A stretch of 64,000 nucleotides of DNA. Origin: Daphnia carinata (taxonomy: Eukaryota). Shown here piece by piece: positions 7,844 through 24,400 of the stretch. The position numbers and the translations under genes are program-made. The DNA is taken from assembly GCF_022539665.2 (NCBI RefSeq), contig NC_081333.1, forward strand, positions 12,276,001 to 12,340,000, given 5' to 3'. How positions within the stretch are numbered: the first letter of the stretch is position 1; every line of letters starts with the position of its first letter. The notes beneath the pieces are model-generated. The model saw only the letters and a list, made by a program, of their open reading frames with translations, was not told the origin of the DNA and did not search any database.

Positions 7844-10349
7844 TTAAGGCTTGACGAATTGAAGGACTTGTTTGGCTTGCGACTTGGCGACTTGATACAT
7901 CTGACGAGGCGTCACCTCGCTTTTGGAATCGTTGAGCAACGCCATGCAAATTACTGAGAGCTTGTTGGCGCAGGTGCGGAAGAGCGGATCTTTCGTGGTG
8001 ATCTGCTGATCGCCCAAAACTTTAATGATGACGGCTTTCAGCTGCTGCTTGAATGTGTCCTTTGGGAACGCGGCAGCTCGTTCGTTGTTGTTTTTCTTGG
8101 AAGGCGTCGTTCGATTACTCGTTCGAGTTAGTCCGCCGCTTTTGGCCAACAGACGGGGAGACTTGCGGAGCTGCGCGAGGTCATGCGGTTGTTGATTCTT
8201 CTTCGGCGTTCGGGCTGCAACCACACCAGAGCTCGAAGCTAAAGCCGGCGGACGGTTTTTGGCTGACAGCTGATAGGAAGTCGAACTGTTGATCGACCAC
8301 GGGTTACACCACGTTGCTGACGCTGTCTCGGGAGGTACCCACTTGTCCTGGTATTCAGATCGCTGTTTCTCAGCTTTCTCATCTTCCACGCTGCGATTAT
8401 AACTAATTCAATAATGCTTATTAGCATACTTTAAAATTTCTTTTGCCATAATAAGAAAACCTACTTGATCCCGTGATATTTTAAATTGACGCTCAAGGGC
8501 CATTCCGTCTTCCGGGCTGTTTCCACATCACACGTCGGTTTCAATCGTGTCGAGACGATGCTTTCAGGACGAGTCTTTTTGGGAGAGCGATTGGGTTGCT
8601 GTTTTTTGTTGAAACAACGTAGCAAACTGTTGACATCGACTGAGACGGTACGGCCATTGGAGCCAGGTTGTAATAAGCGATTGTTCATAGTAGCAGGCCG
8701 GTCAATTTCGGTAACCATCTTCTTTTCCAACTTCCATTTGAGAACTTCGGCTTCTGAGAATTCCGGCCACTCGTTTTTCTGTGGCTCGAATTTGGCTGTG
8801 AATCGATGGTGTTGTTTTGCCACGGCTAACGCGACTTCGTCCAACAGTTCGTTCACTGTAGGCAGGTCAATGGAACCATTCTCTTTAATCCACGTTTGAA
8901 GCGCATGCAACTGCAACCGCCGGATTTCTTTTTCTAATCGATCCACTCGTAAGTAGTCTGACGCAGCCGGAACTATGGTGTGCTCAGTTGCGGAAACCTT
9001 AGGCACTGAGAAAGCGATCGTTGAACAATGTCCGACGTAAACATTTGCCATATTTTGCAGTTGATCGGCTCCTTTCAGTAGATAAAGCCTCAATTCACTG
9101 TCGGTCCAGTGACTCAAGAAATAAAGGGATTGCGACGTCGTTTCCTTTCCCCGATGTTCCACTTCCTCAGTTGTGTAGTCAAGGCGAAACAGAAATGAAA
9201 CCTATTCAAATAAGTCATTGATTTAATATTTTGTTTATATTTTTAGTGAATAACACAGTTACGTTTTCATCCATTGCTTTCCAGAACGAATCTGCTTCTT
9301 CTATTGATAGTACCAAAGACGTTGAGGTATAGAAAATGAACGGTACACTGTCGGCATCAAATGAGCCGACCAGTTCCAAAAATGAACAAAATGTTTTCCT
9401 CTGTTAAAGAATTGAAATAATTAAAATTACCATCCATAAAACTTGCAGATTAACAAATACTACCGGTGCCGCAATAAACGGGAAACATTCACCCCTTATT
9501 TGACTTATGAGCAGATCCAGAGAGTCAAAGCCATAACTGAGTTCAGCATGTTCAAGATGTCTGAAATGGTTAGGATTTTGAGGATCTCTCATTTTCAAAG
9601 ATCCACGCCAAAACAGTTGATGGTTTATACCTATGCACAATATGGCAAACTCTTGTTTATGAAATATCTTTACGTTGTTGCACAGACTAAATGATTTCCA
9701 AAATTCAGGACAATCTTCCTTTTGTATTATTATGTCAATGGCGTAGTTCTTTAAATTATTGAAAGCCTTCTCATCCCATGGGTCAGATGGTATGTCTGCA
9801 ATGAAACTGCTGGAAAGAAATTCTTGGAACACTTCAACTCCTAAGCCTTTAATTATTTTGTGAGAATTCGTCAAGCAAACAGCCCACTGAATCGAAGATT
9901 GGTTCTGGACTAACTGGCCGGCATTTGGTGCTCGAGATGATTTCACCATAGAACTCTGATAATCCTTCACAACTTGAAAATCATGTTTCCATTTCACTGA
10001 AAAAAACAAACAAAGAAAATTAATATAACATATAGTAGGCATGGTTCTATGGAACAAGGTAATGCCAATTCATGGCCTTTACTTTCAGCATTCACAGACG
10101 GAAGCTTTCATGAAAATGTTTATAAATCTTTCATTTTTGAATGTTAAATTAAGCCCATTGCAATGAAATCCTGTTATAGTAAGGGCAACTTATGGTAAAA
10201 ACAACAAGGTGATATGATGGAAATATAAATTGCTAGGTTGGAAACCTTCACAAAATCAAAGAAATGAGATGAGAAAAAACAAATGTTAACCTACCTATCT
10301 CGTTTTTATTGTTAACATCATCAATCACAATTATAAAATATCGTTCCAT
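7844..10349 (-). CDS. MTBP: Mdm2-binding protein (MTBP / Sld7-like replication origin-firing factor), about 5 exons
   Basis: Exon 1 (10349-10295) reads MERYFIIVIDD, like the vertebrate MTBP start (recalled as MDRYLLLVI). It splices in phase 1 to 9996 (VKWKHDF..., ORF 9404..10057). Later exons lie in ORFs 8461..9162 and 7844..8389, joined across a GT-AG intron as EWPLSVNLKYHGI-N-YNRS (MTBP YHGIEY motif). The C-terminus LKAVIIKVLGDQQITTKDPLFRTCANKLSVICMALLND...QMYQVAKSQAKQVLQFV matches the MTBP C-terminal domain pattern. Recognised from memory, no search run; internal exon boundaries approximate. Confidence 0.82.
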
Positions 10350-10517
10350 GGTGTCGGCGAAAATTCACTGTTTATTTATTATGCTTCAACCAGATAGTTT
10401 TATTGAAAAGTAACACAATAGCAGACAGTTGACGTTTGAACGCGCCAAATAGCAAAACCATTTGTCCTCGCTGCTTAGCAACCGCAAGCAGACGAAAATT
10501 GGTCTTCAACTGAAAAA
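10350..10517. promoter_or_regulatory. Probable bidirectional promoter / shared 5' region between MTBP and POGLUT2/3
   Basis: Only 168 bp separate the two divergent start codons (10349 on -, 10518 on +). The interval contains GCGCCAAA (10442-10449), an E2F-like site. Function inferred from geometry. Confidence 0.6.
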
Positions 10518-12410
10518 ATGTCAGTTTTCAAATATGCGTTTGTCTGGAACTGCATAAGTATTTTCATAATTATTTTTAATCCGACAACAAGTATTGCAAA
10601 TGAGCTGTCTGAGTGCATGGTCACCGGGCCAGGAATCATTCCCGATCGGGTGGTTCTTCCTGCTCGATATTTTTTCATACAGTCAACAGGAAGGTACCAT
10701 CACGGTGTTTCATGTAGACGTAAAGCATGTACAGTTTTATCTATTGATTTAGGTGTAATATTTCACAAGCCGAACTAGTTGTCGAGCTGAAAGGAAAATC
10801 TGAACATGGTCCTTGCAGAGTATGGACTCAGATACTTGATCGTCATGATGGAAGCTTCATTGTTCGCTACAAAATGTTCCAGGTGGGTTCAATAGCTAAT
10901 AACTTATCTTAGAACTCTAAACAATAAAAACAAATCATTCAGTACTGTGATGACATGGAAATTCATGTCATCTGGAAAGGCCATCATCTAGCTGAATCTC
11001 CCTACACTTATGAAGGAAGGATATATGCTGAAGCCTGTGATTGCCCACTAGACAACATTGATGAGATGATTGCTGCCTATCAATGTTCAACTGATGTTGT
11101 TCAGGTTGATAATGACCTTAGTCAATTCCACAATGTTGACTTCAACCAAGTTCTTAGTGAAGCGATAAAGAGATTCAGTCATGCAGGTTCTTACAGTTTT
11201 TGCCATTATGTGGTTCTTAATAATAAGGTAAATGTTCTGTACATAGTTATCATAACACGTAGTACAATTTTAGTGTTTCTCGAAAGGTACATCGTCACTG
11301 CTATGGCCAACATGTGGGATTCAACATGTTTATGGATAATATTCTGTTATCCATATCCCGTAAGGCAATCCTGCCTGACATGGAGTTTTTGATGAATCTT
11401 GGGGATTGGCCATTAGTCAAGAAAAATGTGCGACCAATCATACCAATATTCTCCTGGTGTGGATCAACCGAAACTGCTGATATTGTAATGCCGACCTATG
11501 ATATCACGGAAGCCTCATTGGAGTGTATGGGAAGGTTGTAAAACTGCTTTGCTTTCTGTGAAAAGAAAAAAAACTGACTTTTACTACTTTTTTTTACAGG
11601 GTAACTTTGGACATGTTATCTGTACAGTCCAATCCGGAAATAAGGTGGGAAAACAAACAAGATAAGGCTTTCTGGAGAGGAAGAGATTCACGTCGGGAAC
11701 GATTAAACTTGGTTAAACTTTCACGTCGTCACCCTGAATTGATCAATGCATCTCTAACCAACTTCTTCTTCTTTCGGGACGAAGAGGAGACATACGGACC
11801 GAAAGAGGACCACATTTCCTTCTTCAAATTTTTTGATGTAACTTTTATTGCTCAGCACTCCAAAAATTCTTCTTTAATTCAGAATTAACTTCATCGTTCG
11901 TGTCTGGTTTTAGTACAAGTACCAGTTGAACATAGATGGTACAGTAGCAGCATATCGCTTCCCCTACCTATTGGCCGGCGATGCCGTAGTGTTCAAGCAA
12001 GATTCCGAATACTACGAGCACTTTTATAGTGACCTCAAACCGAAAGTGCACTATATTCCAATCAAAGCAGACCTCAGTGACCTGGTTGAGGTGATTAAAT
12101 GGGCCAAGACTCACGACGAAGAAGTTCGACAAATCGGTGCTAATGGAAGGCAGTATGCCAGGAGTCACCTTTTGCCAAAAGATATTATTTGTTATCACGC
12201 CACCCTTTTTAAGGTTTTTTGCATACGAAGTAGATGTTTGATCTTTTAATTAACATTTTCTTTTTTGTCTTACTGCAGAAATGGAGCCAGAAACTCAAAA
12301 CTCCTGTTCGTGTTCGTGATCAAATGACTTTAGTTAAGCCGTCTAATTCGACGGACAAGCGGCTAGGTAGCTGCCAGTGTTCGAAGAAAATGACCCATAT
12401 GGAACTATGA
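10518..12410 (+). CDS. POGLUT2: Protein O-glucosyltransferase 2/3-like (KDELC family; filamin-type repeat plus CAP10/GT90 domain), about 7 exons
   Basis: Signal-peptide-like N-terminus followed by [82 protein letters not shown] and [18 protein letters not shown]...YYEHFY, all typical of KDELC1/2. The last exon (12279-12410) ends ...[11 protein letters not shown], a KDEL-like signal. POGLUT2 versus POGLUT3 is not resolvable. Confidence 0.92.
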
Positions 12411-12624
12411 AATGGAATCATTTTCACGCAGCTTACGCTTATCAAGTGCCAAAGTAATCAGAAAAAACTGGCTACGTTTATGAATCTTCAACTCTTACTG
12501 CATGTAGTGTTATTCCAGAAAACAAAACAGGTATATAATACACTTTGCTTTTACACATACTATTTAACTCAAAACTTCCAAAGAAGTTTAGCATTCGAGG
12601 GAACACATTTCTAAGTCGATAGAA

Positions 12625-15075
12625 CTATTCCAGGCCAGCGGTGTCTAATTCGCGGATAGAAGGCATTCTAAGTTGAAACTGAAATGCATCTTCGAGCGAT
12701 ATCAGTCTACAATGACTAATGTTCAGGTGACTCAGGTACCGCAATTGATACTTTTCAATAGCATTAAGAGTTAACTTGGTTAAATTTAGACAGCCCTTTA
12801 AAGAAATAAGTAAAATGATTAAGACACAAAGAGGAGTAACAATTCTTTGATACGTACATGCAGACTTAATCGCCTTAGTCTGGAGAGGTAACTTATTGCT
12901 TTTGTCATACCATAATCGGTAAATTTACCATAGTTCAAAATTAGTATTTCGATTCCACGATTTTGTTCGCTAAGTGCGACAAGTCCGATATCTGTTATCT
13001 GTAAGGACAAGAAATTGCGCAGCTTAAGTCGAACCCTCATCTCCAAAATAGCTTCAAGTTGATGTATACCAATGGACAAGCATTCAAATCTAGGTGTCGC
13101 AGTTCACGGAATCGAAAGGCATACTGCAAGCTTCGGTCTGTAAGTTTATTGCACCCGCCGACTGATAGGTGAATAAGACCTAATACAAAATTTTAAAAAA
13201 TCTAAACTCTACCTAGGAGAACCAAATCGGACATAATCTGCCAAACCTGAAAAGCTGTAGAACTCTGCCGGTGTACAGTTTTCCTTTAGTTTGCTACATG
13301 GAGCTTCAAGCGGTTTATCTTGGAAATTTCCATCGTCTTGAATAGCAAGTTTGGTCACCTGCGATAAGCGCTAATTCAAAAAATGTTTTAGAATTGGAAA
13401 ATCCTATTTGCAAACTACACCGTCAATTTGTCCGCGAAACCGTCATCAGTCAGAGAGATGCACCAGTCGAGAAGGAGTTCACGCAGATGCAACAGTGAAT
13501 TCAGAACAACCTTACCAATTGAGAATAAGATACGGTGAATGTAAAATAAGATTTCCTTTCTGATAGTTACCCGGAGACTGGAGTCTGAAACCGCCATTTT
13601 ACAAGAAGTAAGATTGAGGTGGGTTAAAAATGGAGAATTCTTCGCCAACTGATGTAATGTTTCCTCCACCATTCTGGTGTTGCTAAGGTTGATTTGCGTA
13701 AGTGTTTCGTTCCGTTTAGAAAGCAGACCGTTTTCGACACCTTTAAATCTCAGTTGAAAATGTTAAATACCCAGCACATTTGAGCAGAGATTCACCTAAG
13801 GAGGTTATGTTTTGAAGACCTTGCAGATTGACGTACGAAAGGTAACATAACTGGCTTAAATAGGAGATTCCCATGTCCGTTACTGCACGGCAGTTTTGAA
13901 TCGAGAGCTTTTGCAAATTGGGTAGTAAAGAACAGATGCTACTTAAAGCATTGTCTGTAATTCTAACGCAAGAACTAATATCGAGTTCGGTTAGAGTTGA
14001 TTGAGTAGCACAAAGACCACTGATTCCCGTGCTGCTTACTTCGCAGCTACGCAGTATGAGGCTATGGAGTTTTAGGCCAGCTACCTATTTTCGAAAAGGT
14101 ATGCATCAGAAATGAATCTAAATATCATTTTTACAAGTTATACCTTCGACAATGAGATGCACGCCTTGTCATCTATGAGCGTTTGACTAAAGTCAAGATG
14201 TTCGACCGTTTTTGAATGTTCGACAATATGCTGCAACATGCAGTCAAATGTTAAGACTAATTCAGATGATTTATTCTCTCCTTTGCCATTGTTTTTGGAA
14301 TAAAATTTCTTATTTATTCCAGGATGGAAGGATATGGTGGTTGCTGAGAAGCTTAAATATTTCAGGCTGACAACTAAAGCCATGAATCGATCGAGGAGGG
14401 CATCAGAGAAATAGGAACTGTTTTCTGAGAAAGCAAGTTTCTTTAAATTTGGCATGGCTAGTTTAATGTGGGACAAGACTAGGTCATTGCTGAAAAGTTT
14501 TCCAGTAATGAAAGTATCACGGCAGTTGTGAAAATGTAGGCTCTCCAGTGACTGGCATTGTAAAAGGAGGTTCAATAGATTGGCCTCTGTTATATAGCTT
14601 CCATGTATTTCTAATGACAAGAGATTTCGACTGATTTGGCTCCAGAACTCAAACAGACCAGGGGTACTGGCACTAAAATTTATTTCCTGCAAGGTATTCA
14701 TGTTTTATAAATTGTTTACATTACTAATAGTATACTAAATGTGACGAAATGAACAAGTGTTTCAGGTGTACCTGGATTTTTAGATCCTGCACAGGTTTTC
14801 TTGTCCATTGGAACACACAGGCAGCGTCATCCAAAGAATTTTCAAAAGTAATAACTACATCCTTCCACAGAGACATAGTCAGAGAGGCTTCGTACCACAA
14901 CAAACATATCGTTGAAGCGACCAAACGATCTGAAGGTTTAAGATATTTTAAGATCTTTTCGATTATCTAATAAATGCAATAGTTTTGTGAATTTCTGAAC
15001 AAGGGCGAAGCGAAAAATAGAAAAAAACAAAAAACATTTTCTCTTACTCACTTCAAGAGGTAATTTATCAGCCAT
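12625..15075 (-). CDS. F-box/leucine-rich-repeat protein (FBXL type, resembling LRRC29/FBXL9), multi-exon
   Basis: Exon 1 (15075-15052) MADKLPLE with donor GTGAGT splices to 14966 IIEKILKYLKPSDRLVASTICLLWYEAS, an F-box motif. Downstream exons (ORFs 14138..14701, 13415..13672, 12819..13079 and exons between them) give cysteine-containing LRRs such as LTHLNLTSC, LRELLLDWCISLTDDG and QITDIGLVAL. The last exon ends ...RMPSIRELDTAGLE-TAG at 12625. Confidence 0.88.
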
Positions 15076-15079
15076 AATG

Positions 15080-15087
15080 ATCAAAAT
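15080..15087 (+). repeat. Left copy of putative target-site duplication ATCAAAAT
   Basis: Identical 8-mer at 20090-20097 directly after the right end. It could also be read as a 6-bp TCAAAA or 9-bp ATCAAAATA duplication, depending on where the terminus is placed. Confidence 0.7.
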
Positions 15088-15273
15088 ATGGCAATCTGTT
15101 TTACATAAAAAAAATTAAAAAAATCGCACTTTTTTCTTTTTTCCGACACGTAGCCATCTACCGCTCAGACTCGTTATTACTGGCGTAGGCAATTTCAGTC
15201 CATTGGATGCCATACGCAGTTAGTTCAGTAGCATGGATGGAGAATAACGCGTGGCCGGAGGAACAAATGAAAA

Positions 15274-15850
15274 ATGGATAAGATAATACAACAAAAGGAT
15301 GGTAAGTATGAAGATTATTATATTGGTATTCAATTATTAATTATTGTTTATTAGATCAAATTATGAAGCTGCAGGCCCAATTATTGGAACAACACAAAAT
15401 ATTAGATAACAGCAAAGCTAAGGAGGGTAAGGCCTAATATGTAATGATTCTATTTATTTGCTTTTATTCATTCGTGTTTTGTAGCTCAAATTTTGAGTCT
15501 TCAAGCTCAGCTAGGGGAAAAGAACAAATTGGAACGGGACAGTTTCCAAACAGTGAAGGAGGTTTTTCCAAACTCATCCCTAACTGAACATGAGGATGAA
15601 TTGGCATTAGGCAAACACAGTCAGGTACCTAAACTTTTCAAATAAGAATTCAAAATAAGTATAGAATTTTAACAAACAATTATTTATTGTTTAGTTATTC
15701 AGTCTACCACCTGACAGTGTGTTAAAGTTAAATTCTTTTAGTGCTGCACTAAAAGAATTGTTAGTAATAAGTCCAAGCAGCAAAGGAACTGAAGAATTGT
15801 GGGACTGTATTTGGGCCGAAACTGGGTGTGGTATGGAAACACAGAAATAG
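15274..15850 (+). CDS. Putative spliced 131-aa protein with coiled-coil-like N-terminus carried in the left arm (may be the 5' part of a decayed longer gene)
   Basis: Exons 15274-15301, 15355-15426, 15485-15624 and 15695-15850 are joined by GT-AG introns of 53, 58 and 70 bp and stay in frame: MDKIIQQKD/DQIMKLQAQLLEQHKILDNSKAKE/AQILSLQAQLGEKNKLERDSF...KHSQ/LFSLPPDSVLKLNSF...GMETQK*. More exon-like blocks with splice sites but broken frames continue to ~16660. Confidence 0.5.
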
Positions 15851-16751
15851 CATGAGTTCAACATAAAACATGAATTAGGTACTTTTCGGTATTTTGTCTA
15901 TCGAAAAAGTATTTTTAATGCTATTATTTTGCATTCACAGAATTTTAGCAGGGGATCAAGTCAAGTCTGGAAGTGTTACAGGATGGAAGAGTGAGCCTAC
16001 AGTTGAAAAACACTGAAAGTGCATTACCATTAAGGTATGAGGTAAAGTAATAGAGTATGCAAATTGTCTAATGAGAAGTACCATCTTGTGTGAATGAATC
16101 CTGTGTAACAGCATTCCTTTATAGTTCTGTCACAGCTAGAAGCCTCAAATAATTCTGCTTCTCTTGCTAAAGAACAACTTGTCCTTTACATTCAGAGTGT
16201 TGGTGAAGCTGGGTACTTAAATGGCCCTAAAGATGTTTCATTTCGTTGGCATTGCAGCGATGAACATCATACATGGACTCTTTAGGTATGAAAGGAATTT
16301 TCTTGAAACTTTTTTTAATTTATGACAAAGCATTTCTCCTGCTTTTTGCCAACCATGTCTAATCTAGAAAAAAAAATTTATCCAATAGGAAAGGATTTTC
16401 AGCATACTGGGAACACAACTATCAACAATGCAACATTCTAGGGCTGCTATTTTATCATTCAAGAGCCTTATACAATGATTTTCATCTGCAATTTGTATGG
16501 CCTTTCCCAAGCTTCTGCCAGAAGTTGAATCTATAAGTCATGTAAGTCACATGAGCAACAATTGAGATGCTTAATGGTGTTGTTTTTCTTTTCTCAGCAT
16601 AGGTTAATAGTAACATTGAATCTGAAAAGATTCTTGGTTGGGGCAAGACACTGAATAAATTGTAATGATTGAATGGATGACATGACATTTCTATACTTAA
16701 TTTGGATTCCCGAGACGGTATTTTATATTTAAAAAATTGAAGTGCATATCT

Positions 16752-17115
16752 GGGCTCCCTTCCTTTCCGTAGCCCCGTTTCCCCTTGACTCGTAATAAGC
16801 CCGTAGGGGGTCATGCCCCTACTGTACGGTATATATAAAAACAACATATACCGAGGTTTGGAGGGCTCTGGCCGGAAAGGGGACGTGGGGGTCCGCTTAG
16901 TCCGATGATGTGTTCACGGAGGGCGAAGTGGCAACCCACAAATCCGAACTAAAGGTTAATCGCTCCTGTAAAAATGTTCCAAATCTTCAGCTCTTCTTCC
17001 GGCTTCTCTTAGCCAATCACCGGGTAATCTCCCCGGTGGGTCAACAAGGCAGTGTCTCCCCCTGCCTGGGTTGACGGCAACTTTTGAAAGGGCTATTGTG
17101 CCTTTTTAAAGTTGC
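16752..17115 (-). other. GC-rich multi-hairpin segment, left-arm copy
   Basis: Appears to be the exact reverse complement of 18048-18411. Confidence 0.5.
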
Positions 17116-17421
17116 AAAAATAATTGTAATGTGCAGAGAATTGTCAATAAAATTTTTTTTATAAAATATTTTTTGCAAAATTTGTTTCTTTCATTGTCTG
17201 TGTTAGCTGTGTTCACACATTATATTTATCAACTTTTTTTTTTTTTTTGCTTTGCTTTATTTGTTTTTGTCACCTTTGATGGTAAGCATTGTTTCCATTG
17301 GTTTATCGTTTATCTGTAAGTATTCAATTATTATTCATTACACTCTATGAATTCTTTAACTTAGATTCAAGGAACAATGTGTAACATCTGGATATTTTTT
17401 GGAAGTAATTTTGTAGTTTGT

Positions 17422-17494
17422 TTTACTCGTATGGGAACCGATCCCCAGACATTCAGCGTGTAACGCCGATGCTCTAACACTGAGCCACGAGATA
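17422..17494 (-). pseudogene. Degenerate tRNA-like sequence (anticodon position TAC, Val-like)
   Basis: Minus strand reads CTCG TGGCTCAGTGTTAGAGC A TCGGC GTTACAC GCTGA ATGTC TGGGGATCGGTTCCCA TA CGAG: D arm/A box, 5-bp anticodon stem with 7-nt loop, damaged T loop/B box, partial acceptor stem. Confidence 0.65.
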
Positions 17495-17589
17495 TATCTA
17501 AATATTTTATTATCGCATATCAAATGTTATCGTCTAGGATGTTTATGCAGTCTTTCACAGTTATATGTCTATCTTCTAATGCTTTCATA

Positions 17590-17660
17590 AGGTTCATAGC
17601 TCTGTGGAAGAGCCTTTAGCTGTGATACCTGTTACCCTTGGTTCAAACCTCAGTAGATGT
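17590..17660 (+). pseudogene. Highly degenerate tRNA-like sequence (A and B boxes kept, anticodon stem lost; GTG at anticodon position)
   Basis: TAGCTCTGTGGAAGAGC (D arm/A box) at 17597 and CTTGGTTCAAACCTCAG (T arm/B box) at ~17637-17653, at tRNA-like spacing. Confidence 0.5.
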
Positions 17661-17799
17661 GTGAAGATGTAAAATAGTAGTGAAGATGTAAGAAGTAAAA
17701 TAAATGTAGAAGAGTATATTGCAGAATTGCACATCAGTTTTATTCTAAGTGTAAATGCAAGTCCACAAGTCACTAGAAAAAAGCCAACTTGACATCATA

Positions 17800-17871
17800 T
17801 GATTCATGGCTCATTGGTAGAGCATCGGCGCGGTATGCCGAACATCCAGTGTTCGATCCCTGGATAATAAT
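17800..17871 (+). pseudogene. Degenerate tRNA-like sequence (anticodon position GGT, Thr-like)
   Basis: TGGCTCATTGGTAGAGC (A box/D arm), perfect stem TCGGC-GCGGTAT-GCCGA, and CCAGTGTTCGATCCCTGG (T arm with B box GTTCGATCC). Acceptor stem poorly paired. Confidence 0.7.
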
Positions 17872-18047
17872 AAAATGTTTACACATAAACGATAAACCAA
17901 CGGAAACCAATGTCACCTTACCATCAAAGGTGACAAAAACATATAAAACAAAGCAAAAAAAAAAGTTGATAAATGAAACAAATTTTGCAAAAAATATTTT
18001 ATAAAAAAAATTTTATTGACAATTCTCTGCACATTACAATTATTTTT

Positions 18048-18411
18048 GCAACTTTAAAAAGGCACAATAGCCCTTTCAAAAGTTGCCGTCAACCCAGGCA
18101 GGGGGAGACACTGCCTTGTTGACCCACCGGGGAGATTACCCGGTGATTGGCTAAGAGAAGCCGGAAGAAGAGCTGAAGATTTGGAACATTTTTACAGGAG
18201 CGATTAACCTTTAGTTCGGATTTGTGGGTTGCCACTTCGCCCTCCGTGAACACATCATCGGACTAAGCGGACCCCCACGTCCCCTTTCCGGCCAGAGCCC
18301 TCCAAACCTCGGTATATGTTGTTTTTATATATACCGTACAGTAGGGGCATGACCCCCTACGGGCTTATTACGAGTCAAGGGGAAACGGGGCTACGGAAAG
18401 GAAGGGAGCCC
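18048..18411 (+). other. GC-rich multi-hairpin segment (candidate structured RNA or ssDNA element), right-arm copy
   Basis: Consecutive stems at 18048-18086, 18088-18123, 18125-18145, 18211-18266 (enclosing two small hairpins), 18310-18336, 18341-18360 and 18361/18411. Paired by eye, no folding program run. Confidence 0.5.
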
Positions 18412-19311
18412 AGATATGCACTTCAATTTTTTAAATATAAAATACCGTCTCGGGAATCCAAATTAAGTATAGAAATGTCATGTCATCCATTCAATCATTA
18501 CAATTTATTCAGTGTCTTGCCCCAACCAAGAATCTTTTCAGATTCAATGTTACTATTAACCTATGCTGAGAAAAGAAAAACAACACCATTAAGCATCTCA
18601 ATTGTTGCTCATGTGACTTACATGACTTATAGATTCAACTTCTGGCAGAAGCTTGGGAAAGGCCATACAAATTGCAGATGAAAATCATTGTATAAGGCTC
18701 TTGAATGATAAAATAGCAGCCCTAGAATGTTGCATTGTTGATAGTTGTGTTCCCAGTATGCTGAAAATCCTTTCCTATTGGATAAATTTTTTTTTTTAGA
18801 TTAGACATGGTTGGCAAAAAGCAGGAGAAATGCTTTGTCATAAATTAAAAAATTTTCAAGAAAATTCCTTTCATACCTAAAGAGTCCATGTATGATGTTC
18901 ATCGCTGCAATGCCAACGAAATGAAACATCTTTAGGGCCATTTAAGTACCCAGCTTCACCAACACTCTGAATGTAAAGGACAAGTTGTTCTTTAGCAAGA
19001 GAAGCAGAATTATTTGAGGCTTCTAGCTGTGACAGAACTATAAAGGAATGCTGTTACACAGGATTCATTCACACAAGATGGTACTTCTCATTAGACAATT
19101 TGCATACTCTATTACTTTACCTCATACCTTAATGGTAATGCACTTTCAGTGTTTTTCAACTGTAGGCTCACTCTTCCATCCTGTAACACTTCCAGACTTG
19201 ACTTGATCCCCCACTAAAATTCTGTGAATGCAAAATAATAGCATTAAAAATACTTTTTCGATAGACAAAAAACCGAAAAGTACCTAATTCATGTTTTATG
19301 TTGAACTCGTG

Positions 19312-19886
19312 CTATTTCTGTGTTTCCTTACCACACCCATTTTCAGCCCAAATACGGTCCCACAAGTGTTCACTTCCTTCGCTGCATGGACTTATTACTA
19401 ACAATTCTTTTAGTGCAGCACTAAAAGAATTTAACTTTAACACACTGTCAGGTGGTAGACTGAATAACTAAACAATAAATAATTGTTTGTTAAAATTCTA
19501 TACTTATTTTGAATTCTTATTTGAAAAGTTTAGGTACCTGACTGTTCGCCTAATGCCAATTCATCCTCATGTTCAGTTAGGGATGAGTTTGGAAAAACCT
19601 CCTTCACTGTTTGGAAACTGTTCCGTTCCAATTTCTTCTTTTCCCCTAGCTGAGCTTGTAGACTCAAAATTTGAGCTACAAAACACAAATGAATAAAAGC
19701 AAATAAATAGAATCATTACATATTAGGCCTTACCCTCCTTAGCTTTGCTGTTATCTAATATTTTGTGTTGTTCCAATAATTGGGCCTGCAGCTTCATAAT
19801 TTGATCTAATAAACAATAATTAATAATTGAATACCAATATAATAATCTTCATACTTACCATCCTTTTGTTGTATTATCTTATCCAT
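19312..19886 (-). pseudogene. Right-arm copy of the spliced coiled-coil gene, frameshifted
   Basis: Same exon/intron layout, but exon 3 ends GGCGAACAGTCAG|GT versus GGCAAACACAGTCAG|GT in the left arm (2 nt shorter), which brings an early TGA into frame in exon 4. Confidence 0.5.
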
Positions 19887-20089
19887 TTTTCATTTGTTCC
19901 TCCGGCCACGCGTTATTCTCCATCCATGCTACTGAACTAACTGCGTATGGCATCCAATGGACTGAAATTGCCTACGCCAGTAATAACGAGTCTGAGCGGT
20001 AGATGGCTACGTGTCGGAAAAAAGAAAAAAGTGCGATTTTTTTTTTTTTTTGGCGAAATTTTTTTTTTGTGTGTAAAACGGATTGCCAT

Positions 20090-20097
20090 ATCAAAAT
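20090..20097 (+). repeat. Right copy of putative target-site duplication ATCAAAAT
   Basis: Matches 15080-15087. Confidence 0.7.
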
Positions 20098-20120: not shown

Positions 20121-21430
20121 TATGGCAATCCGTTTTACCCAAAATAAAAATAAAAAATATTGGCCTTTTTTTTCTGTTTTACTGCTATCGTCATCTAACG
20201 ATCACGTTTCTAGTTAATTCTCTACATACACTGACAGAAAAATTTTTTAAGCCCGATTTTCTGTTTTTTACGGTTAATTCAAAAACAAGAAGCCTGATAT
20301 AAAAATATACCCCATTTTCGTGATCAGCGATCAGTTTCGAATCGGAATAATGTATTTTTAATGAAATCTAGGATTTGAAGAAAATTGGAAGAGTGGGAAG
20401 GCCTTCTTACTTTTTCAATTTTGGCAAAATTTTTGATTTCGCCTTAAATACATGGTTTCGATGCAGAATTGAACGGGCATCACGAATATGAGGGTTGTTT
20501 TCTCGTGGGACTCATAGTTTTTGAATAAGATGTAAAAAACGATAAAAGTTGGAGAAAAATAAGCCCGGGCTTATATTGTCGGGCTTAAATTTTTTTCCTA
20601 TTAAAAAATAATCGCATTATCTAGATAACTATAGATGATTCTGATTCAAAATTAATCAAGGAACACGAAAATAGAATTTGTTTTTACGTAGGGTTTATAG
20701 TTTTGGAGTAATCTAAAACATAAAATTAGTGTGTGTGCGAATCATTACTAGCGCGCCAGTACGCTACAGCGCCAGCGTGACACATCAAACTTCGTTGATT
20801 ATTCAAACACCATAAACGCTACGTAAAAACAAATTTCATTTTCGTGTTCCTTGTTAAATTTTGAATCAGAATCATACATAGTTATCTAGATTTAATGATA
20901 CTATTTTTTAATAGGAAAAAATTTTAAGCCCGACAAAATAAACACGGCCTTCTGTTTTTTACGATTAATTCAAAAAGCGGAAGCCTAACATAAAAATATA
21001 CCCCATTTTCGTGATCGGTGATCAATTTCGAATCGGAATACTGTATTTTTAATGAAATGTAGGATTTTACGAAAATTGAAGAAGTGAGAAGGCTATGTAT
21101 GGCCTTCTTACTTTTTTATTTTTAGCCAAATTTTAAATTTGGCTTAACATCAACTACATCATATTTATTCAGTGTATTTCAAAAGCAATTGATTTTATGA
21201 AAAAACGAGTCAATTTTTCTGAATCAACATTAAATTCTGAGTATACCGTGTGATTTTAAACGTATTCCACGAAATTTCGATTTTTGTCTGATTTTGACAA
21301 AAGTGAGAAGGCTATATAGCCTTCCCACTTTTTCATTTTTGGCCAAATTTCAAATCTGGCTTAAAATATATGATTTTGATGCAGAATTGAATGTTAATTA
21401 CGAAAATCAAGTCTATTTTTCAATTAGCCA
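20121..21430. mobile_element. Second, probably truncated, non-autonomous DNA element sharing the foldback's terminal sequence, with internal direct and inverted repeats
   Basis: Starts TATGGCAATCCGTTTTAC, the exact reverse complement of 20073-20090. It has diverged direct repeats (~20257-20450, ~20949-21147, partial ~21301-21420) and a palindrome (~20575-20713 versus ~20797-20940). No matching right terminus found; end coordinate approximate. Confidence 0.7.
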
Positions 21431-24400
21431 CGTTAATTCAACGTTAATGACGGAACGTGCTAGCGCACAGATGTGTTAACCCGTTTTTTCCGTTTATTTT
21501 TAAAACCACACGATCCATCTACATCTACTGAGAGAAAAATTGTGAAAATGGGGTCGTTCGTGTATCATTTCATCACTACACTTTCTGCATGGGGAAACTA
21601 TTCGGATAGTTCAATGCAGTGATGTTTCAGGTTAGACATTCTAATTGTTAAGGATTCCTTCACACATCAGGAAAGTGGCAGTAGCGTCTTGCTTTTTAAA
21701 ATCCACAATTTCAACTGCCTGCGCTGGATAAAGTTATCATGTTTAAAATACAATATACCCGTAGCGTATCTTTTTCCCATTCTCTGATGACTCGCTGGGC
21801 ATCGACATCACGGATTTTGGACCCACCGGAACGTCGACTTTTGTTTCCATCGCGTATATATCATTCTGCATCTTTTTTGAATTCTTTCGATCCGTGTGTA
21901 CACATTCAGCCAAATAAAAAGATAAGAAGGGACAGAATACAGTGTACCACTATATCTCGAAAAGGATGAATATCCGGAAATCCTGCCCTATCAAATTAGG
22001 CCTCGTAACCATATAGCGTCCACATCAAGAATTAGTCATTGTACGAGCGCAGAAAGGGAGGGGAGGGGGATCGTTAGCTACACAACTGGACGGAGTGACA
22101 ACATGTTTATCTATCACTCATTTTTTTTTCCATTTCTGTCTATCAAATCCAATACCAAAAACTAGCTGTTTGCTCTCCATCAATGTTTGAATTTTCACAT
22201 TGAAATCCGGTTACGGAGGGATTGCTAGGCGAACGTCTGGTGAATGAAAGCGCACCCCATTCATGTGTATTATAAAGAATAAGAAGAGCGTCGAGGGTGA
22301 TGAGCGTCTATAGTGTAGTTGGGTGGCTCAAATAGAGAAGGGCGAGCGATGGTGTACAAAAGGGAAAAAGGCATAAAAAGATGTATTTATATGTTAGTAA
22401 TGCGTTAGGACGAAAAAGAAGGAGGGAGAGGGAGTGATTTTCAAAATTCCATTGTGAATGTTCCCAGTCTCGAAGAATAATAAGAGCGACGGCCAGACGT
22501 GTACACATATAAACATCTTTTTATTTATTTTATTTCAGTTTTTTTTTTTAAAGGTGGATGTTAGCCTATAACCCAGTCATACACACGCACGGACGCTGTC
22601 CGGCGGGGGCCAAACATGAACAAATCAAAAAGAGCCGTCCCATTTTTGCTATTGGTCTTTCAAATCGCACTGTCAACACCACACAAGACGTCTCCCTTTT
22701 TTATTACCATTATGTCCCCCTTTTTTTCATTTTTGAATTCAAGCCTAGGGTCAAAAAAAAGCGATTCATTGTTGAATTTTAATCGTTTGATTTTAGAGTT
22801 TAGACTCGCTGGGTCAACCGCGGCGGCATCATGGACGCCAATGTACAACTTCTGCCGACTGCTGCTGTTGTCGTTTTTTTTTTTTACTCCCCTCGTTTTA
22901 AAGTGCCTTTTTATCTTTGTATTATAGTGGTATAATAATGTCCTTCTTTTATCCCCCCCCCCCCTTTTTTTCAGACGCAATATACCCAGAGCGCAAAAGT
23001 GTTGTGTGCCGATGGAATCGAAATGTCTCGGCAGGCATATACTATAAAGAGATCGTCCAGTCTGTTATTTGTGCTGGTTCAATACTGCTGAATGTTGGTA
23101 CGTTACTGACCATATAATAGTACAGAAAAGACATCGCTGCATATGGAAAACCCCCCAATTTCTGTTTAGTCAAAGAGATGAGAAGCAAAATGATGACAAC
23201 ATCACCGAGAAAAAAGGAAAAACACAGACGAAGTAAAGAGGTATGTAACAAGATAAATATGAAGAGTCTGATGTCTAACTCTGCGTCGTAACGTTAACGT
23301 AACAGCCGCAAGTTCTCAAGAGAATTCAAACAGAATTCTTTTGAAAAAAACAAAACAAGAATTCTGGTTGACACAGCCAAGCGGTAAATCGATGCAACGG
23401 GCAAATACGTGTGGACGAAGGTTATGCGCTCGATGACTGGACACAAAAAATCACGCACTCCCGATCATCCATCGTGGGGCACAAACACACGAAAAGTTAA
23501 AATCCCCGAAACAGAGGGAAAGAGATGGGAAAAAAAAGAGTGTCAGAAACACAACCGAAAAAAAAAAGAGTTCTTTTTTTCTTCCTTTTTAGTTTGAAGA
23601 AGGGAGCGTCCTTGTGTGGCGGCGGCGGTTGTGTCGTTCAAAGAGAGAACGTACCCACTTTAGCTCATCTTTTTCTTTGTGGTGTTGACCGAGTCCTCAA
23701 GTACTGAACCCTCGGCCCCGACAAGACTCTATCCAACAGTATTATTTCTCTCTTTTCTTGTTTGAGTGGCTGTTGGGAGGGGACGCCATCAGAACTCTTG
23801 CTACCTTAAATGTATATTGTCAGTTATTTTTCCGTCCTATTTGACTTTTTGCCCTTTTCCGTTTGAAGCCTTTTTTTCCCCCCGCGTTTCCGTCGCAAGT
23901 CATTAGCTTATATATACATAGTATTTCTTCCTTTTTCGGTTAAATTTTTGACTCTCTTGTTTGCGCCTTTTATTCTCTTCGTATAGTTGCTCACCCCCTC
24001 GACGTGATGAATGGCCATTTTCTAAGAGAGAGAAAAAAAAATGCCACATCTTGTTTCAATGTGGCTCCGAGATGACGCATATAGATGTAGTCAACAGGTC
24101 TGTTACTCATACAGAACTGCTGCTGAGGCATTGAAACTGTGGCGTACTTTCAGGTCCCAATGTGTCGAGACGATGAAAGCCGCTGTTGGCCGGGCAACGG
24201 TGGCCTGGATGGATTTTCAGTCAAATGTAATTTACGGAGCGATGCTGACGATGTGTGTATGCAAAGTAGGCTATACAGTCCTTGCGTGCGTGCCTAGTCC
24301 ACTACATTTACAGCTGTTGAAATTACTATTATTATTATTATTATCGGGAGAGTTGAATGGTTTCTTTACGAGACAATGACATTAGCTGTCGGGATTGAGA

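What the first reader, a model, noticed from the sequence alone, without database searches (positions are those of the whole stretch)
15088..20089. 5-kb foldback element with an organised modular layout: [gene ->][<- hairpin array] [tRNA-like cluster] [hairpin array ->][<- gene]
Seen: two ~2.25 kb inverted arms, a ~520 bp unique spacer and an 8-bp flanking direct repeat. Each arm carries an inward-reading spliced ORF and an outward-reading hairpin-rich segment, and the spacer holds three tRNA-like units. Known: foldback and Pack-MULE-type elements have long TIRs and can capture gene fragments, and SINEs use tRNA-derived Pol III promoters. I do not recall a family combining kilobase gene-bearing TIRs with a central divergent tRNA-like cluster. 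Inference: a possibly undescribed non-autonomous transposon family, mobilised in trans, that could also produce long dsRNA or hairpin RNA.
Basis: partly seen in the sequence, partly recalled or inferred. Interest (0 to 1): 0.88.

Follow-up and report, generated by a model that had tools for sequence, protein, structure and literature searches.

The report
Mirror-image IS3EU-type transposon in water flea
This 5-kb mirror-image stretch of water-flea DNA is real and its arms belong to a multi-copy, spliced repeat family; its ends match the little-studied IS3EU group of jumping genes, so it is likely a transposase-less IS3EU derivative carrying a probably non-functional gene remnant, a variant of a known kind rather than a new system.

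Summary
The foldback is real: two ~2.25-kb inverted arms (95.8% over 2,274 columns) around a 523-bp spacer. Read as 15087-20090, the element ends TATGG..CCATA inside a 6-bp repeat (TCAAAA), the published IS3EU/GingerRoot signature; the 8-bp reading also fits. No transposase was detected. Each arm holds a spliced gene. The left copy is an open 131-codon frame, 84-92% identical to 24 Daphnia carinata proteins (48 such sequences on record, some as adjacent identical pairs). The right copy is frameshifted, and arm differences look neutral (2 synonymous, 11 not). Intron-less contigs of one run confirm the splicing. The hairpin block is real, but 'outward-reading' is not established. The spacer holds two weak, decayed tRNA-like units and one A/B-box-only unit; their presence in other copies is untested. 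One of three complete IS3EU elements fetched from other animal-like DNA is also a whole mirror image, and this scan earlier noted IS3EU-type foldbacks in sea-urchin, coral and other genomes (unchecked). Verdict: likely a non-autonomous IS3EU foldback derivative, inserted 12 bases before a host LRR gene's start codon. New variant of a known kind.

The parts
15087..20090 (.). Whole foldback element, ends TATGG..CCATA (alternative register 15088-20089)
15081..15086 (+). Left copy of the 6-bp target duplication TCAAAA (8-bp alternative 15080-15087)
20091..20096 (+). Right copy of the 6-bp target duplication TCAAAA (8-bp alternative 20090-20097)
15087..17337 (+). Left arm
17861..20090 (-). Right arm; identical to the left over 821 bp (16368-17188) while 20 substitutions cluster in 15473-16367, a patchiness unlikely under even spread (p 0.0004)
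15274..15850 (+). Left-arm spliced ORF, exons 15274-15301, 15355-15426, 15485-15624, 15695-15850; 131 codons, predicted N-terminal coiled coil, no Pfam family
15851..16700 (+). Further spliced exons after the stop (GT..AG joints near 15879-15940, 16042-16111, 16042-16195, 16286-16388); no open frame, likely remains of a longer gene
   Evidence: HECT and transposase profiles not significant
19214..19886 (-). Right-arm copy of the gene, 2-bp deletion in exon 3, frame closes after 85 codons
16750..17125 (.). GC-rich hairpin block of the left arm; four abutting stem-loops in 16985-17125; no Rfam family
18055..18430 (.). Mirror copy of the hairpin block in the right arm
17126..17190 (.). AT-rich zone with AATAAA at 17146 on the inward strand and T runs on the outward strand; candidate end of transcripts from both sides (inferred)
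17338..17860 (.). Central spacer
17423..17494 (-). tRNA-like unit 1, cloverleaf fold (z -2.2), Rfam tRNA 23.9 bits, below cut-off
17597..17649 (+). Unit 2, A-box and B-box-like motifs only
17807..17862 (+). tRNA-like unit 3, Rfam tRNA 21.5 bits without acceptor stem; shares 24 of 27 bases with unit 1
15052..15075 (-). First coding exon of the host leucine-rich-repeat gene; its ATG lies 12 bases from the element's left end
20121..20180 (+). Third terminus of the same type (TATGGCAATCCGTTTTAC), 30 bp right of the element; no partner end found in the window

Best explanation
This is a real, transposase-less foldback DNA element of a multi-copy Daphnia repeat family, likely a non-autonomous IS3EU/GingerRoot derivative that would be moved in trans by an IS3EU transposase acting on its TATGG..CCATA ends. 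Shown: arms, ends, flank repeat, spliced multi-copy gene, frameshifted right copy, no detectable transposase. Inferred: one end of an ancestral element, with its promoter and the start of its companion gene, was copied in inverted orientation over the other end (strand switching or conversion during gap repair, as proposed for Galileo arm extension), which removed the transposase; the arms have since exchanged sequence in patches. Inferred: the end promoter still drives a spliced RNA whose short frame is a neutral remnant, the hairpin block likely sits in that RNA's 3' part, and the tRNA-like units are decayed passengers in the uncopied middle.
For: Ends and repeat: register 15087-20090 gives TATGG..CCATA and a 6-bp repeat; 3 of 3 termini in the window carry the T. 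IS3EU families 'always' end TA..TA with usually 6-bp TSDs (PMC10045372 passage); rust-fungus families end TAYGG..CCRTA (PMC12730594 passage; 15 of 15 supplement rows seen begin TATGG or TACGG). 3 of 3 complete IS3EU elements fetched here end TACGG..CCGTA with a 6-bp repeat in that register only; 1 of the 3 is a whole mirror image with 4,366-bp arms. Multi-copy: 48 D. carinata proteins in 7 clusters, rows on 9 different chromosome-sized records, 3 of 20 listed rows with two adjacent loci for one protein; 584 contigs of run X1 at 85-100% identity. Splicing: 5 GT..AG joints in the arm and one host intron. Neutral frame: 2 synonymous and 11 non-synonymous arm differences against 19% expected synonymous; 2 and 8 among listed variants; 10 different C-termini among 24 proteins. 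No transposase: 0 of 91 frames of left arm and spacer give a meaningful Pfam match; an IS3EU transposase profile finds nothing under E 0.1 in 2,787 window frames. Arm protein shares 49 columns with D. magna proteins (hhalign E 9e-14) whose next domain weakly resembles the N-terminal domain of IS3EU companion genes.
Against: The 8-bp/ATGG register fits this one site equally well and no second complete copy or empty site was seen. No autonomous partner with these ends was found (no genome held). The sixth base is C here but A or T in all IS3EU ends seen. The link to IS3EU companion genes is weak and indirect: hhalign probability 2.3%, E 0.02; shuffles reach the score in 1, 7 and 593 of 1,000 for the three proteins; direct comparison of the arm protein gives nothing; the 3' exons do not match a HECT-like or transposase profile (7 of 100 shuffles as good in each test). 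Variable sites avoid the stems of the hairpin block, which a purely neutral remnant does not predict. GingerRoot of clubmoss avoids genes (PMC6839031 section 18), whereas this copy sits at a gene start.
Confidence: 0.72

Rival explanations
1. A foldback of an 8-bp-TSD superfamily (Pack-MULE/Foldback, Galileo-like P, Zisupton or hAT) with ends ATGG..CCAT that captured a gene fragment.
For: The longest flank repeat is 8 bp in this register. MULEs have long TIRs, 8-10-bp TSDs and gene capture (PMC5225508 passages); most foldbacks are assigned to Mutator (PMC4079207 passage); Zisupton makes 8-bp TSDs (PMC12730594 passage); Galileo 7-8 bp (PMC4168063 passage).
Against: All three termini are preceded by T, and TATGG..CCATA with 6 bp is an exact published signature; the 8-bp reading needs only two chance flanking bases on top of the 6-bp one. 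No transposase fragment of these groups among 91 frames.
Confidence: 0.15
2. A functional cassette: the conserved hairpin block and the central tRNA-like (Pol III/TFIIIC) units would stop the two inward transcripts from reading through, so the element makes mRNA but avoids a 2-kb hairpin RNA and silencing.
For: Four abutting stem-loops, z -6.4; 11 listed variable sites have mean pairing 0.27 against 0.59 on the inward strand, 9 of 380 shifted positions as low (61 of 380 on the outward strand); one contig of a wetland run has 0 differences over 162 bases of the block while other pieces of that run differ by 5-8%; AATAAA and T runs face each other at the arm's inner end.
Against: The variant list was cut (30 rows not shown) and sites are clustered; contigs show no strand, end or level; units are below the tRNA cut-off and unit 1 and 3 have diverged; no tRNA-model match in three IS3EU loci from other animals (0 of 11 rows); the spacer was not seen in any other copy.
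Confidence: 0.1
3. An assembly artefact (folded-back long read or mis-joined repeat).
For: No record spanning the whole element was seen (one search covers the left arm only, in pieces).
Against: The arms differ by 29 substitutions and several indels including a frameshift; both flanks are unique and share the target repeat; adjacent identical gene pairs occur in the D. carinata reference annotation.
Confidence: 0.03

Closest known systems
IS3EU/GingerRoot superfamily of DNA transposons (PMC10045372, PMC12730594, PMC6839031, PMC8232023; passages and named sections read)
   Same: TA..TA ends, here TATGG..CCATA; 6-bp target duplication; inverted ends; an extra gene read inward from the end; GingerRoots carry gene fragments.
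   Different: No integrase-type transposase; inverted repeats of 2.25 kb instead of 30-150 bp; both arms carry the same gene; hairpin block and tRNA-like middle not described in the passages read; sits at a gene start.
Galileo (P superfamily) and other Foldback-structured elements such as Tetris (PMC4168063, PMC4079207; passages read)
   Same: Long arms extended by recruiting internal sequence, including ORF pieces, into both ends; non-autonomous; foldback shape said to arise independently in different lineages.
   Different: Different ends and duplication length; no tandem subrepeats in these arms; arms hold a complete multi-exon transcription unit.
Pack-MULEs / MULE foldbacks (PMC5225508; passages read)
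   Same: Long inverted ends, gene-like cargo, insertion near genes.
   Different: 8-10-bp duplications; here the cargo is inside both arms and its closest relatives are other repeat-like Daphnia proteins, not an identified host gene.
tRNA-derived SINE heads and tRNA pseudogenes (recalled, no call)
   Same: A-box, B-box-like motifs and partial cloverleaf followed by an A-rich stretch.
   Different: No own target duplications or dispersed copies seen in the window; scores under the tRNA cut-off.

Membership tests
IS3EU/GingerRoot | TA..TA (TAYGG..CCRTA) termini | tested here: met
   TATGG..CCATA at 15087 and 20090, third terminus also TATGG; definition
IS3EU/GingerRoot | 6-bp target site duplication | tested here: inconclusive
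   6-bp TCAAAA in the TA register, but an 8-bp repeat fits the next register; one site only
IS3EU/GingerRoot | Terminal inverted repeats longer than 30 bp | tested here: met
   2.25-kb arms
IS3EU/GingerRoot | Integrase-type (PF24764) transposase in the element (autonomous members) | tested here: not met
   none; so at most a non-autonomous derivative
IS3EU/GingerRoot | An autonomous IS3EU with the same ends in the same genome | not testable with these tools
   no genome held; scans of viral and metagenome collections gave chance hits only
IS3EU/GingerRoot | Second (companion) gene related to those of known members | tested here: inconclusive
   indirect and weak; HECT-like remnant not significant
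MULE / Pack-MULE / Foldback | 8-10-bp duplication and TIRs over 100 bp | tested here: inconclusive
   8-bp register possible; long arms present
MULE / Pack-MULE / Foldback | MULE transposase or shared ends with a MULE | tested here: not met
   no match in 91 frames; shared ends with a MULE could not be tested
P superfamily (Galileo-like), Zisupton, hAT | Own transposase or ends shared with such an element | tested here: inconclusive
   no transposase match; no repeat library available to compare ends
Functional tRNA genes | Full cloverleaf passing tRNA finders | tested here: not met
   ARAGORN 0; Rfam 23.9 and 21.5 bits against 29
Known structured RNA or ribozyme | Rfam match or hammerhead core in the hairpin block | tested here: not met
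   (no family near cut-off); hammerhead-core scan found none

The most novel reading that the evidence does not exclude
A widespread Daphnia family of mirror-image IS3EU derivatives keeps a selected RNA module: a structured 3' hairpin block plus central Pol III/TFIIIC-bound tRNA-like units that end or block the two convergent transcripts, letting a near-perfect 5-kb palindrome stay transcribed without making long double-stranded RNA, an anti-silencing architecture not described for transposons.
Probability: 0.1. Interest if true: 0.7.

Novelty: new variant of a known kind. Interest (0 to 1): 0.32.

Why it matters
IS3EU is called poorly characterised in the papers read (PMC8232023, PMC11934779 passages). 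A foldback form with a transcribed, spliced arm gene extends the group to Daphnia and suggests that mirror-image derivatives are a recurring product of IS3EU biology. In practice it explains dozens of 'uncharacterized' D. carinata gene models as transposon arms, and this copy separates a host LRR gene's start codon from its upstream DNA by 5 kb. If the hairpin block and tRNA-like middle prevent double-stranded RNA, that would be a new way for palindromic DNA to avoid silencing; the evidence for that is thin.

Tried and rejected
No whole genome is held, so copies could not be counted directly. Terminus scans: 1 hit in viral contigs and 7 in metagenome contigs, all chance (no further similarity). 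Protein-based metagenome scan: 319 pattern matches, none confirmed. Run search: no RNA holder listed; X4 gave 0 laid contigs. Contig depth was not used as an expression level or a transcript end. Homolog search with a 3' exon frame: none; PDB searches: none; Atlas first hits 0.86, no lead; structure model low confidence (pLDDT 59.7, pTM 0.27), so no fold search was run. By-eye likeness of the 3' exons to a HECT start, to the IS3EU transposase motif or to P-type transposases: HECT-like 16.0 bits against 13.1 +/- 1.7 and transposase 19.5 against 16.1 +/- 2.5, 7 of 100 shuffles as good in each; P-type not tested beyond Pfam. The label 'HECT-like' for L010/L011 frames rests on a recalled motif; Pfam gave no hit. 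ISL2EU reading (GGC ends, AT duplication; recalled) dropped because it leaves the longer flank repeat unexplained. Dada and KolobokP do not fit (no TIRs; direct repeats; passages). Penelope/hammerhead, telomerase, 7SK and RNase MRP ideas: no Rfam support, no hammerhead core; others judged by eye from recalled motifs. Relaxed ARAGORN is noise (31 calls in 5 kb). Viral scans for IS3EU and HECT motifs: 0. The bacterial promoter scan is irrelevant here. Literature searches that found no description of this family or of this combination; Repbase, Dfam, the Zisupton paper and the 2019 Kojima review were not available, so an existing library entry cannot be excluded.
Full report
Observation. The two arms align over 2,274 columns at 95.8% (15086-17337 against 20091-17861) and enclose a 523-bp spacer. 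They are not evenly diverged: 20 substitutions fall in 15473-16367, while 16368-17188 is identical for 821 bp, which 20,000 random placements matched in 0.04% of cases. The right arm has a 2-bp deletion that closes its frame. Unique flanks, a shared flank repeat and real differences between arms argue against a folded-back read, though no record spanning the element was seen.

The ends. Moving out one base gives TATGG..CCATA with a 6-bp repeat, TCAAAA. A third terminus 30 bp to the right also begins TATGG. Passages of PMC10045372 say complete IS3EU families always have TA..TA ends and usually 6-bp duplications; PMC12730594 gives TAYGG..CCRTA and 6 bp for rust-fungus IS3EU, and 15 of the 15 supplement rows I saw begin TATGG or TACGG (27 rows exist). 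GingerRoot has 6-bp duplications, 100-150-bp TIRs and gene fragments (PMC6839031 abstract, passages, sections 18 and 21). As a check, a transposase-motif scan fetched 27 loci, many being intron-bearing, animal-like DNA in prokaryote genome records; Pfam confirms PF24764 in 3 of the 3 transposase frames tested. Three distinct complete elements among them end TACGG..CCGTA with a 6-bp repeat in that register alone. One, L021:8688-17556, is itself a mirror image: 4,366-bp arms 99.95% alike, 137-bp spacer, a transposase in each arm. It was seen once, so an artefact is not excluded. Against IS3EU: the 8-bp register fits this single site too, and the sixth base is C here but A or T in the IS3EU ends seen.

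The arm gene. Exon 15695-15847 hits five D. carinata clusters holding 44 sequences; two more clusters add four. Listed rows lie on nine chromosome-sized records, and 3 of the 20 rows give two adjacent loci for one identical protein, as paired arms would. The left frame is 131 codons, 84-92% identical to the 24 family proteins fetched; the right closes after 85. Run X1 is on record only as guessed DNA, but its contigs skip five GT..AG introns of the arm and one host intron, so I infer it is RNA-derived; 584 contigs lie on the stretch, 215 at 99% or more, 212 at 95-99, 131 at 90-95 and 26 below. Three of the spliced introns lie after the stop. The frame shows no sign of selection: 2 synonymous and 11 non-synonymous arm differences against 19% expected synonymous, 2 and 8 among listed variants, and 10 different C-termini among 24 proteins; the numbers are small. 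The model is a low-confidence coiled coil. No transposase is detectable. The arm protein shares 49 columns with D. magna proteins (E 9e-14), whose next domain weakly resembles the front of IS3EU companion genes in L010 and L011 (best of 7,036 frames at E 0.16; 1, 7 and 593 of 1,000 shuffles; hhalign probability 2.3%). My guess that the 3' exons are HECT remains was not supported.

Hairpins and tRNA-like units. The block is real: four abutting stem-loops in 16985-17125 fold at z -6.4 on the inward strand and -4.2 on the outward one; the whole 376-nt block scores -2.6 inward and -3.1 outward. Eleven listed variable sites avoid stems in the inward fold (9 of 380 shifts as low; 61 of 380 outward), from a truncated, clustered list. 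X1 contigs cover the block, but contigs give no strand or end. It matches no Rfam family. Units 1 and 3 are weak tRNA matches related to each other and are the only tRNA-model rows in the 64 kb; unit 2 has only box-like motifs. T runs would end any Pol III transcript from units 1 and 3 before the hairpin block, so tRNA unit and hairpins are unlikely to be one SINE-like RNA. Three IS3EU loci from other animals show no tRNA-model match. Whether other Daphnia copies have this spacer is untested.

Context. The element sits 12 bases before the ATG of a minus-strand leucine-rich-repeat gene, with an initiator-like ATCAGT (recalled motif) just outside the right duplication, so it likely parts the gene from its start site. 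X1 holds a spliced contig of that gene, but whether that genotype carries the insertion is unknown.

Mechanism. Shown: foldback anatomy, IS3EU-type ends, multi-copy spliced arm gene, no transposase. Inferred: an IS3EU end with its promoter and companion-gene start was copied in inverted orientation over the other end, as internal sequence is recruited into Galileo arms (PMC4168063 passages), and foldback shape is said to arise by transposase loss and arm elongation in different lineages (PMC4079207 passage); the element would then move in trans and its arms would convert each other in patches. Confidence 0.72. Rivals: an 8-bp superfamily (0.15), a selected anti-read-through module (0.10, compatible with the IS3EU origin), an artefact (0.03).

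Novelty. Eight literature searches found no description of this family or of IS3EU foldbacks; Repbase and Dfam could not be searched. The IS3EU reading came, before I saw the scan's notes, which record IS3EU-type foldbacks in sea-urchin, coral and other genomes, one with the same 8-bp first reading, IS3EU elements with HECT companions and foldbacks with tRNA-derived pieces; these are unchecked notes, not support. What this copy adds is a transcribed, spliced arm gene, a structured block and a tRNA-like middle. New variant of a known kind; interest 0.32.

Noticed in passing
L021:8688-17556 (same element as L014:2471-11339): An 8,869-bp IS3EU with TACGG ends and a 6-bp duplication that is a whole mirror image: 4,366-bp arms 99.95% alike, each with a transposase reading inward and a second gene reading outward from a 137-bp centre; only short relatives were found elsewhere in its record.
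   Followed up: partly
window 20121-21450: A third TATGGCAATC terminus 30 bp from the element's right end, followed by a nest of palindromic modules (20250-21420); no partner end in the window. May be a truncated or interrupted relative inserted next to the first element.
   Followed up: partly
window 12600-15075 (-): Host leucine-rich-repeat gene whose ATG lies 12 bases from the element; first exon has an F-box-like start (recalled motif, untested).
   Followed up: partly
D. carinata proteins P0001-P0022, P0027, P0028: At least 48 'uncharacterized' reference gene models appear to be arms of this repeat family rather than host genes.
   Followed up: partly
L009-L034: Many prokaryote genome records in the genome collection contain intron-bearing, animal-like DNA with IS3EU transposons, i.e. 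likely host contamination of those records.
   Followed up: no
window 15295-15528: Exons 2 and 3 of the arm gene begin with related sequence (67% over 110 bp), a small internal duplication; 15731-15759 is a 29-bp palindrome inside exon 4.
   Followed up: no
window 7847-10360 (-) and 10570-12410 (+): Neighbouring host genes match MTBP_C (E 7.5e-8) and glycosyltransferase family 90 (E 1.6e-35).
   Followed up: no
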